A DNA stretch of 64,000 nt from Octopus sinensis (Eukaryota), in assembly GCF_006345805.1 (NCBI RefSeq), contig NC_043004.1, positions 93,062,001 through 93,126,000 on the forward strand. Reading direction: 5' to 3'. The notes below the pieces were generated by a model, which saw nothing but the letters and a program-made list of their open reading frames with translations, was not told where the DNA came from and did not search any database. Made by a program: the position numbers and the translations under genes. Below, piece after piece: positions 55,201 to 58,200 of the stretch (within the stretch, counting starts at the first letter, position 1; the number at the start of each line of letters is the position of its first letter).

Positions 55201-58200
55201 AAATATGTATCAATATATATATATATATATATATATATATATATATAAATAAAACGGGAAGGTTTACGAAAATAAACAAAAAACGAAGGCAGGTGGAGTA
55301 CAAACAAACAAATGTATTAGTATGGCGCTCAGGAATAGAAATAGAACAAGTCTTTTACGTTTCGAGCCTACGCTCTTCGACAGAAAGATACACAGAAAAG
55401 AAACAAGGAGAGAAAAAAATGCGTGTAGGAGCTAACGGTCTATCATATATATATATATATTATATATATATATATATATATAATATATATATATATATAT
55501 ATATATGGCAGACGTAACAGTGACACAAGGTCCAAGAGTTTCATGCATTAGCAATACACAAAATTCTTGGACCTTGTGTCACTCTGTTACTTCTGCCAAA
55601 TATTAATAAAAATATACATATACTCATATATTGAGTTCTGTTTTTCCTGTTTGCATCAGCATACCTGTGTCATAACTATGACTTAATTTTTCCTCTCACA
55701 CAATCTCCGATGAAGGGATATTATTAATTAATATCCTAGAAACAGCTGTAAGACCTATCTATAAATGCTCTAATATCTATACAGCCTTGGGTTTTTTATC
55801 TCATTATGCAAAAAATTCGTATATATAGGTATCTTCTACATCCTTCCAATAATGATTTAGAATACCTAATTCTTGAATTTCCTAACACTAGATTACCCTA
55901 CTTTTGGATTATGGTACACCTTTGAATTTCCTCAGAGTGCTTCATTGTTGTACCTCTTATATATGTTAAATTCAACTTACTTTGAAAGTCAACAAAGTTT
56001 GCTTCAGAAGCATTGAGATGTATTAAAAGATACAGATAAGGAAATAGTTTTATTCTCACACATAGCATTATCCTGCATTTGAGAATAAAATTATTTCCTT
56101 ATCAGTATCTTTTATGTATATATATATATATAAAGTATAAAAGCCATCTCAATATGGCTAATCACAAAGGGGGGGGGGGTTACTGTAGCTTTTTAGCCCC
56201 AGGAGATCATCGTCTCCAGCTGGCTTTAGACACCCTTTCAGTGCCCTTGAAGTATTTGCAAAGGGAGGCCATCCCTTTCTCGTAAGCCTGAGTGATACGC
56301 ACCGGACCGGTTTCGAGATTATTGTCTCTTATCAACGGGTGGTAATCACCAGATCACGATGAAAGACAAGGCCTGTTTGCAAATATATAAGAGTTTTTCT
56401 AGTGACGTCTGCCACTGATTTCGAAAAACTAATAGAAGTTGATTCAAAATTGATATAGGTTATTGTTAAATAATTGATAAAAGTCACCCTTAGAGGAAAT
56501 GTGTGCATAAACTGAATACCATGAGATGGGCATGCCATTTGAGCAGCTACAGCTGTAGACATGCATCATATTAGGGACATCCAAATGTGTGTCATCAACC
56601 ACATATGGCAATGCATACAAAGCTCTGCAACCTGGCTGCAGATACATTGGCAAATAGGACCAGGTATGCAAACAAAGAGCTGAAGTTGGCACATACAAGG
56701 TGCACTTACAACAAACCCTTTGACCTGAGTTGGGCTGGGTGTATTCTAAAGACTTTGTATTGAACATGGTCTTGACTTCTTAATCAGCTACAAAGCAACC
56801 TTTATGCTAACAAGTGACAGTTGTGCAGCGATATGATTTATGATATCCGTAATAAAAGGAATATATGACTTGTACTGCACCACTCTTGCTTTTATTGGTG
56901 GGTGGGGCCATCAAAACGAATTGAATTTATTGAAATCATTACAAATCAAATCAAAGGTTATATAGGCTTGGTCCACTAGTTTTTGGGGGTCAGGTGGGGT
57001 GTAATCTTCTCTTACTGAAGCTGCCTCCAATCATGGCTGAGGAGCCCAAGTTTACTTTCACTCCAGTGGTCATATTGTACAATCATTCATTATCTCAGGG
57101 ATTTTTGTCTCCACACACTATTTCATGATATCCATTAACCCTGTGCTGAGTTTATGTCATTTTGACAGGTTTTATTTGTGTTTTATTTGAGTTGGGTTTC
57201 TTGCAATCCACTTCACTTGGCTGTGGTTTAGTCACTGATGCCTCATTAAGTGTCAAGTTGTACTTATGTTACCTCTAACACTCATGACTGACCTGACACC
57301 TGTATATGCACACACAATGTACATACTCATACACACATAAAATTAGTTTTATGGTTCCGAGAAACGAGTTTGAAAGAGCCTTTTCCTGGAAACTGTTCTC
57401 AGTGAAAAAACTCAAAATAAGCTACAAGAATTTCTTAGTTTCATATACAAGGGCTGATCAATAAGTATAGTAACGTTCTAGCCCACTTCACTGTTTACAG
57501 CACTGCTAGGAAGGAAGGTGAGTAGCATGTGATTGTTGCATTGACCATGACTGAGAAAGTTGTCATGGCCATACCTGCTCAGAGGCCTTAGCAAAGTTGC
57601 AGAAAGTGTATGGAGAGGAGTGTATGAGCTACACAAAAGTGTACGAGAGATTCAGACATTTCCGGGCTGGCCGAAAAAATGTTGATATTACCGAACGTTT
57701 TGGGAGACCCACAACCAGCAGAACTGAGAAAAACATTGTAGATGTGCATGCAACTGTGAGGGGAAATCATCAAATCACCATCCACAAGTTATTAGAGGAT
57801 GTGCAGATTAGTTATGGTTCTGTTCATTATCACTGAAGATTTGGGTTTTTGAAACATAAATAATTTACTAATAAATCAATTTATATAAAATAAATACTAA
57901 TAAGTAAAACATAAGAAACAGAAAGACAGGGTTATCAATGCTCAGTAACAGATAGGGAGATGTAAATCTCATCTGTCCATAATACTATATATATATATAT
58001 ATATATATATATATATATATAATATATATATATATAATATATATATATAACGGGAAGGTTTACGAAAATAAACAAAAGACAAAGGCAGGTGGAATACAAA
58101 CAAACAAATGTATTAGTATGGCGCTCAGGAATAGAAATAGAACAAGTCTTTTACGTTTCGAGCCTACGCTCTTTGACAGAAAGATACACAGAAAAAAAAC

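What the first reader, a model, noticed from the sequence alone, without database searches (positions are those of the whole stretch)
55250..56480. Three unrelated minimal hammerhead ribozyme motifs packed into about 1 kb of one intron
Seen: hammerhead-topology motifs at 55351-55388(-), 55704-55753(+) and 56302-56338(-). Each has a stem II hairpin, GAAA, a tiny palindromic stem III (ACGU, ACAGCUGU, ACCGGU) and an NUH site, but each has a different non-canonical core (CUGUCGA, CCGAUGA, UUGAUAA) and different flanks, separated by (TA)n tracts and a hairpin. Established: Penelope-like retroelements carry minimal type-I hammerheads with palindromic stem III that cleave as dimers; a PLE GIY-YIG fragment is present at 30336-30622. 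Inference: octopus hosts a diversified set of small non-autonomous ribozyme-bearing (PLE/retrozyme-like) elements that pile up in TA microsatellites and sample core variants that standard CUGANGA searches miss.
Basis: partly seen in the sequence, partly recalled or inferred. Interest (0 to 1): 0.8.

Follow-up and report, generated by a model that had tools for sequence, protein, structure and literature searches.

The report
Penelope retroelement hammerheads with altered cores
Three small self-cutting-RNA (hammerhead) motifs in one intron are leftover ends of three different Penelope-type jumping genes, and the commonest of them carries, in about 13,000 genome copies, an unusual core letter that would be expected to slow cutting, which makes it a likely test case for whether these ribozymes need to cut at all.

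Summary
Observation confirmed. The three motifs lie at the stated places in one 12.9-kb intron of a BIG/ARFGEF (Sec7) gene. Each is the end of a different repeat family, and each odd core is fixed family-wide. F1 (CUGUNGAA) is the pseudo-LTR of an autonomous Neptune-like Penelope element (RT + GIY-YIG between two repeats). F2 (CCGAUGAA) is the 3' end of a Hydra-clade-type element. Only F3 (UUGAUAA) is a non-autonomous 358-bp head-to-tail unit. The cluster is a pile-up of separate insertions at (TA)n, on mixed strands, not a working unit; the GIY-YIG at 30.3 kb is another family. U3-A8 and C4 cores are in print, and the scan noted a U-A core on other DNA. A6U was not found in the papers searched (the most relevant one was not held). 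It holds in about 99% of 12,974 exact motif copies while N7 and H17 vary freely, and the motif is much better conserved than its flanks. Best reading: slow, dimer-dependent ribozymes. Cleavage is untested.

The parts
55250..55445 (-). F1: 5'-truncated end (pLTR) of a Neptune-like Penelope element, subfamily F1a
   Evidence: 97-98% copies genome-wide; same sequence lies downstream of the RT/GIY-YIG ORF in 7 of 30 longer copies
55351..55388 (-). Minimal type-I hammerhead, core CUGUCGAA (A6U), stem III ACGU, predicted cut after A17 (55356)
   Evidence: U6 family-fixed; cleavage inferred
55673..55825 (+). F2: 5'-truncated 3' end of a Hydra-clade-type Penelope element
   Evidence: (8 of 8 endonuclease loci carry F2 downstream)
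55704..55753 (+). Minimal type-I hammerhead, core CCGAUGAA (U4C), stem III ACAGCUGU, predicted cut after A17 (55750)
   Evidence: C4 1240 against U4 340 exact copies
56131..56430 (-). F3: positions 56-356 of a 358-bp non-autonomous head-to-tail element
56302..56338 (-). Minimal type-I hammerhead, core UUGAUAA (U3-A8 covariation), stem III ACCGGU, predicted cut after C17 (56305); stem I weak in this copy
   Evidence: (77 of 78 U3-A8)
55213..55251 (.). (TA)n tract at the 3' end of F1
55445..55506 (.). (TA)n tract at the truncated 5' end of F1
56118..56131 (.). short (TA)n tract at the 3' end of F3
   Evidence: sequence
55483..55666 (.). Unrelated dispersed hairpin repeat (MITE-like), no hammerhead
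58046..58242 (-). Second F1a copy in the same intron (core CUGUCAAA, decayed)
58432..58583 (-). Diverged F1-clan copy (73%), core CUGUUGAA, GAAA decayed
42323..42836 (-). Longer, decayed F1a copy with 3' UTR
30339..30680 (-). GIY-YIG fragment of another Penelope-like family, not linked to the cluster
49943..62851 (+). Host intron of a BIG/ARFGEF (Sec7) gene
   Evidence: splice sites read from sequence

Best explanation
The three motifs are the hammerhead-bearing ends of three unrelated Penelope-like retroelement families in one intron, each with a core variant fixed across its family, and in full or tandem copies they likely act as slow, dimer-dependent self-cleaving ribozymes that trim the element's RNA. 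SHOWN: F1 is the pLTR of an autonomous Neptune-like element (pLTR, 975-aa open frame with RT and GIY-YIG, pLTR). F2 lies 0.4-1.2 kb downstream of a Hydra-clade-type endonuclease. F3 is a 358-bp unit that occurs as partial head-to-tail tandems with a 45-50-base tail and inverted truncated copies, with no ORF found. The cores are family-fixed, and the F1 motif is constrained across subfamilies. INFERRED: two motifs in a tandem transcript pair through the palindromic stem III and cut after H17, as published for minimal Penelope hammerheads; U6 and C4 lower the rate rather than abolish it; reverse transcription starts at the element's 3' end in a TA target and mostly stops early, which leaves 150-300-bp stubs. 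The three stubs here are lone monomers on mixed strands with different palindromes, so they are probably inert.
For: Architecture: L153 has pLTR 2551-2741, ORF 3739-6663, pLTR 6825-7014, and L154 likewise; RT PF00078; 27 of 30 best endonuclease loci carry an F1-clan motif downstream on the same strand. F2 follows its endonuclease in 8 of 8 loci; its extra base before GAA and ACAG/CUGU stem III match the printed Hydra-clade motifs. Fixed cores: 12,974 exact F1 30-mers with positions 6 and 7 free, 128 with A6; in the first 100 listed, U6 99 and C6 1, N7 U51 A21 C16 G12 (my count). Constraint: among six divergent natural copies 6 of 36 motif columns vary against 65 of 124 flank columns (Fisher p 1e-4). 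In four public runs labelled as four organisms, only N7 and H17 vary at 5% or more inside the motif. H17 is A, U or C and never G in 132 copies. Covariation: one C-G/G-C swap in stem I between F1 and a sister family; a matched pair of changes (A-U to G-C) in F3 stem II in relatives (56318, 56325); F3 stem III varies ACCGGU/ACCGCGGU and stays palindromic; U3-A8 keeps the 3-8 pair. In F3, 13 of 14 upstream partial units start 3' of the predicted cut.
Against: No cleavage or RNA-end data. Single changes in the CUGA turn gave low activity in a full mutational scan of another hammerhead (PMC9901934, passages), and natural A6C cuts at under 0.1 per min (PMC3088659). No compensating change accompanies U6. 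Stem II and its loop are invariant in F1, so covariation is thin: 1 pair of 10, 20 of 500 shuffles reach the score; a protein-binding role would also conserve it. Predicted lowest-energy dimers of F1 and F3 do not take the double-hammerhead form; only F2 pairs through stem III. The 128 canonical A6 copies did not expand. The F3 limit has one exception (L294) and may be inherited from a master copy. The six copies were hand-picked and found with a query that includes the motif.
Confidence: 0.6

Rival explanations
1. The F1 motif (perhaps F2 too) is catalytically dead or nearly so, and the hammerhead fold is kept for another job, such as binding the element's RT/endonuclease, RNA dimerisation or promoter function.
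For: A6 changes are damaging in vitro; canonical A6 copies stayed at 1%; the loop-II sequence is also conserved; Naiad elements spread without canonical hammerheads and the role of the motif is called unclear (PMC8557442); function other than cleavage is left open in PMC4209133.
Against: Freedom exactly at N7 and H17, with no G at 17, is the pattern of a cleaving hammerhead; F3 keeps the 3-8 pair by a double change.
Confidence: 0.27
2. The motifs are unselected vestiges: a damaged core was carried along by master elements that no longer need a ribozyme.
For: One site staying unchanged over a handful of subfamilies is not unlikely by itself; the F2 endonuclease frames are mostly broken.
Against: The motif is far more conserved than its flanks; many contigs match only the motif and go on unlike on both sides (loose ends at 55348 and 55387).
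Confidence: 0.1
3. The three motifs form a selected regulatory cluster that acts on the host gene's pre-mRNA.
For: Other-family motifs occur near family copies more often than at random (10 observed, 3.0 expected, P about 0.001).
Against: Only F2 is in the sense of the host gene; the palindromes differ; all copies are ordinary 93-98% family members; the same 1.5 kb holds at least three other repeats; TA runs are 1.6-1.9 times denser near these elements. My rough estimate is 0.1-0.4 such trios by chance for 100-300 F3 copies.
Confidence: 0.03

Closest known systems
Minimal hammerheads of Penelope-like elements (Cervera and De la Pena 2014, PMC4209133; parts 1-2 of 4 of the text and supplement passages seen)
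   Same: Type-I layout, short stem I, extra base after A9, G10.1-C11.1, palindromic stem III, place in the pLTR, mostly single truncated copies; U3-A8 variant already reported in Schistosoma elements.
   Different: Published consensus core is CUGANGAH; F1 has U6 and F2 has C4 as family norm. No octopus entry was found in the two supplement files searched (one file not searched).
Neptune clade of Penelope-like elements (Craig et al. 2021, PMC8557442; passages and supplement rows seen)
   Same: RT, CX2-5CxxC linker, C-terminal GIY-YIG, pLTRs, partial tandems and inverted copies, microsatellite targets; linker and endonuclease resemble the Neptune1_Nv row by eye.
   Different: Hammerhead core has U6. 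No tree was built, and the clade is paraphyletic in that paper.
Hydra clade of Penelope-like elements, including Hydra-1_Obim (PMC8557442, supplement part 2 read)
   Same: CxCX5C linker, CxxC and CxH motifs, (TA)n target, hammerhead with extra bases at both ends of stem II and ACAG/CUGU stem III.
   Different: All listed Hydra-clade cores have U4; F2 has C4 and a different sequence from Hydra-1_Obim; no intact full-length F2 element was seen.
Non-LTR retrozymes (PMC7229834 passages; bioRxiv 10.64898/2026.07.22.740005 part 1 of 5 and passages)
   Same: F3 is 358 bp, non-coding, head-to-tail, with a type-I hammerhead.
   Different: F3 has a minimal U3-A8 motif and mostly 1-1.6 units with Penelope-style inverted copies; only 1 of 83 chains nears two units; circular RNA not tested.
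Natural hammerhead core variants (Perreault et al. 2011, PMC3088659; section 8, passages and supplement search seen)
   Same: U3-A8 (active), U4C (weak in vitro, enough for viroid infectivity) and A6C (under 0.1 per min) are recorded.
   Different: A6U is not mentioned in the text or found in 11 supplement files; figures were not visible to me.

Membership tests
Penelope-type minimal hammerhead | Type-I layout: stem I, core, stem II, GAAA, palindromic stem III, UH site | tested here: met
   for all three
Penelope-type minimal hammerhead | Canonical core CUGANGA | tested here: not met
   F1 U6, F2 C4, F3 U3-A8, each family-wide; the last two are published variants
Penelope-type minimal hammerhead | Lies in the pLTR of a Penelope element | tested here: met
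   F1; F2; F3 has Penelope-style structure but no ORF found
Penelope-type minimal hammerhead | Stem covariation across families | tested here: inconclusive
   1 of 10 pairs in the F1 clan; matched stem II changes in F3 relatives; stem II length variants in F2
Penelope-type minimal hammerhead | Self-cleavage as a dimer | not testable with these tools
   needs a bench assay
Neptune-clade PLE (F1) | RT followed by C-terminal GIY-YIG in one ORF, flanked by pLTRs | tested here: met
   L153, L154; RT by Pfam. Pfam did not score the GIY-YIG of L153, whose YIG is altered in that copy; the domain was read from motifs
Neptune-clade PLE (F1) | CX2-5CxxC linker zinc finger | tested here: met
   C-X4-C-X2-C before the endonuclease; definition
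Neptune-clade PLE (F1) | Place in the RT tree | not tested
   no reference RT set was aligned
Hydra-clade PLE (F2) | CxCX5C linker; CxxC and CxH around the conserved E and N | tested here: met
   L324, L325, L327 translations against the definition and the Penelope1_NV rows, by eye
Hydra-clade PLE (F2) | RT features (RWK, DKT) and tree place | not tested
   only an RT C-terminal piece was seen (L327)
Non-LTR retrozyme (F3) | 150-400 bp non-coding unit with a type-I hammerhead, head to tail | tested here: met
   358-bp unit, junction 358-to-1
Non-LTR retrozyme (F3) | Two or more consecutive units with complete hammerheads | tested here: inconclusive
   1 of 83 chains (L294) nears two units; loci were a sample of the family
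Non-LTR retrozyme (F3) | Expressed as circular RNA | not testable with these tools
   only contigs were available
Non-LTR retrozyme (F1, F2) | Non-autonomous, no protein | tested here: not met
   both continue upstream into Penelope coding sequence

The most novel reading that the evidence does not exclude
The most abundant hammerhead seen in this genome carries a natural A6U core not found in the papers searched, held through at least four subfamily expansions of an autonomous Neptune-like element and shared by runs labelled as four organisms. It is either a new working core, tuned slow on purpose, or a non-cleaving hammerhead fold that the element still needs. Either way one assay on natural U6 and A6 copies would bear directly on why Penelope elements keep hammerheads, and standard searches would have missed more than ten thousand motifs.
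Probability: 0.45. Interest if true: 0.65.

Novelty: new variant of a known kind. Interest (0 to 1): 0.45.

Why it matters
The cluster itself is ordinary transposon debris. The useful point is the F1 family: a very successful autonomous Penelope lineage whose hammerhead has a change at a core position held to be near-essential, yet keeps the conservation pattern of a ribozyme. The role of hammerheads in these elements is an open question (PMC8557442, PMC4209133). The genome offers natural U6 and A6 copies of the same motif, so the question can be tested directly. Counts from canonical descriptors would be far too low here: 1 of 17 relaxed hits in 1.04 Mb had a canonical core (6 of the 17 are one repeat with a weak stem II and may not be hammerheads).

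Tried and rejected
Rfam at gathering score: no match. Single-copy decay as the source of the odd cores: rejected; the U4 share of F2 (340 of 1580) fits CpG decay, my inference. A link to the GIY-YIG at 30.3 kb: rejected (no hammerhead hit downstream). L090 as coding partner of F3: rejected, the join falls inside the endonuclease. Two same-strand F3 copies on C3441: a duplicated stretch, no ORF. Penelope proteins against 63 F3-bearing loci plus a window stretch: two hits, neither a partner. I first filed F2 as Nematis from recall; one search corrected it to Hydra clade. U6 outside this lineage: 0 of 17 distinct motifs in 80 metagenome loci of related elements, 3 with C4 and 1 with U3-A8; only 20 of the 80 loci held a motif. 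No RNA holder listed; searches used contigs only, so no ends, strand or level. Folding is not decisive. Regional density beside the window was not measured. Literature: 9 searches gave no hammerhead A6U; the one A6U hit was a twister. Lunse et al. 2017 and Hammann et al. 2012 were not held, so I saw only their citations; they and figures or supplement files I could not see may list A6U.

Full report
Observation. A relaxed descriptor finds 5 hits in the window against 0.67 on average in 30 shuffles. Rfam gives nothing. They lie in one intron, 49943-62851, of a plus-strand Sec7/BIG gene (splice sites read from sequence). F1 and F3 are antisense to the gene and F2 is sense. The same 1.5 kb holds two long TA tracts, two hairpin repeats and another repeat.

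Each motif is a family. F1 has near-identical copies genome-wide, F2 and F3 likewise. In 104 evenly placed 10-kb stretches (1,039,800 bases) there were 8 F1-clan, 3 F2-clan and 0 F3 motifs. The odd cores are not decay of single copies. F1: 1570 exact copies with U6 against 12 with A6; with positions 6 and 7 free, 12,974 copies of which 128 have A6. F2: 1240 with C4 against 340 with U4; C4 sits in a CpG, so the U4 copies are likely decay products. F3: 77 of 78 have U3 with A8, none C3 or G8.

F1 is the pLTR of an autonomous element. A GIY-YIG frame lies upstream of an F1-clan copy in L101. Of the 30 best endonuclease loci, 27 carry the motif downstream on the same strand, and L153 and L154 show pLTR, ORF, pLTR about 4.3 kb apart. 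The L153 frame is 975 aa with RT and a C-X4-C-X2-C linker, as defined for Neptune. Those copies are a sister subfamily (about 86% alike, core CUGUUGAA, U17). The window's own subfamily runs into the same ORF in 7 of 30 longer copies; the others are truncated or their ORF lies beyond the locus.

F2 is the end of a Hydra-clade-type element. All 8 loci fetched for its endonuclease carry F2 downstream (8 of 150 scored matches were fetched). The linker and C-terminal motifs match Penelope1_NV, and the hammerhead shape matches the printed Hydra-clade list, which already has a different octopus family. Most frames are broken.

F3 is non-autonomous. It is a 358-bp unit whose base 1 follows base 358 of the previous unit, often with a 45-50-base tail and an inverted truncated copy. 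No Penelope ORF was found attached. Of 14 chains that run into an upstream unit, 13 start 3' of the predicted cut at position 181. That fits a template bounded by cleavage, a circle copied a little more than once, or inheritance from one master; I cannot separate these.

Is the fold under constraint? For F1, yes. Six divergent natural copies vary at 6 of 36 motif columns and 65 of 124 flank columns; four of the six are single- or two-copy changes, and the systematic ones are N7 and H17. In 132 copies N7 takes all four letters and H17 is never G (the 11 A6 copies there mostly come from the targeted). Contigs of four runs labelled as four organisms show the same: only N7 and H17 vary at 5% or more, U6 does not. 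Against this, covariation is thin (1 pair of 10), the loop is conserved too, and predicted dimers of F1 and F3 are not double hammerheads. Related elements from 80 metagenome loci gave 17 distinct motifs, none with U6, so U6 looks lineage-specific.

The cluster. Other-family motifs near family copies were 10 against 3.0 expected (overlapping loci make the expectation slightly high). TA runs are denser near these elements. F1 and F2 end at TA tracts in 27 of 30 and 19 of 27 copies; F3 did not show this (4 of 49). A rough estimate gives 0.1-0.4 such trios by chance, so no function of the trio is needed. The GIY-YIG at 30.3 kb is another family.

Mechanism. By analogy with PMC4209133, tandem pLTR transcripts would pair through the palindromic stem III and cut slowly after H17. 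This is inferred. U3-A8 is known to be active, U4C weak but viable in a viroid, A6C slow (PMC3088659); single changes in the CUGA turn gave low activity in PMC9901934. I give 0.6 to slow cleavage, 0.27 to a non-catalytic role of the fold, 0.1 to an unselected vestige and 0.03 to a host function.

Novelty. A family-fixed A6U core was not found in nine searches or in the supplements searched, but Lunse et al. 2017 was not held and figures were not visible. Verdict: new variant of a known kind, interest 0.45.

Noticed in passing
window 55483-55666: Dispersed hairpin repeat (about -55 kcal/mol over 92 bases; 246 candidates, 40 scored, 71-92% alike) with an AT-rich tail; MITE-like, class not settled.
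   Followed up: partly
window 55960-56110: A second long hairpin repeat (about -42 kcal/mol), also repeated in the genome and in the laid runs.
   Followed up: partly
L022:1339-1379, L113:3626-3666, L079:556-596: Sister family of F1 with a 3-base loop II and A6, with either U4 or C4; one stem I pair is swapped against F1. In L019 and L022 it sits directly upstream of an F1 copy.
   Followed up: partly
random stretches L120, L244, L235, L184: At least three further hammerhead-like repeat families, one canonical and two with U3-A8 and ACCGGU.
   Followed up: no
L187, L230, L232: A repeat with core CUGCCGA (C6), stem III AAUU and a weak stem II, 6 copies in 1 Mb, twice as same-strand pairs 0.5-1 kb apart; may or may not be a hammerhead.
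   Followed up: no
window 56128-56283: The 3' half of F3 draws far more contigs than its hammerhead half in all four runs, so it is shared with a more abundant relative, perhaps the missing autonomous partner.
   Followed up: no
window 45940-46400: A 21-base tandem repeat with open frames on both strands inside an intron.
   Followed up: no
window 53920-54700 and 57555-57836: Mariner-like transposase fragments (label from recall of the motifs) in the same intron.
   Followed up: no
L332-L411: C4 cores occur in Penelope hammerheads of other animals too (3 of 17 distinct motifs).
   Followed up: partly
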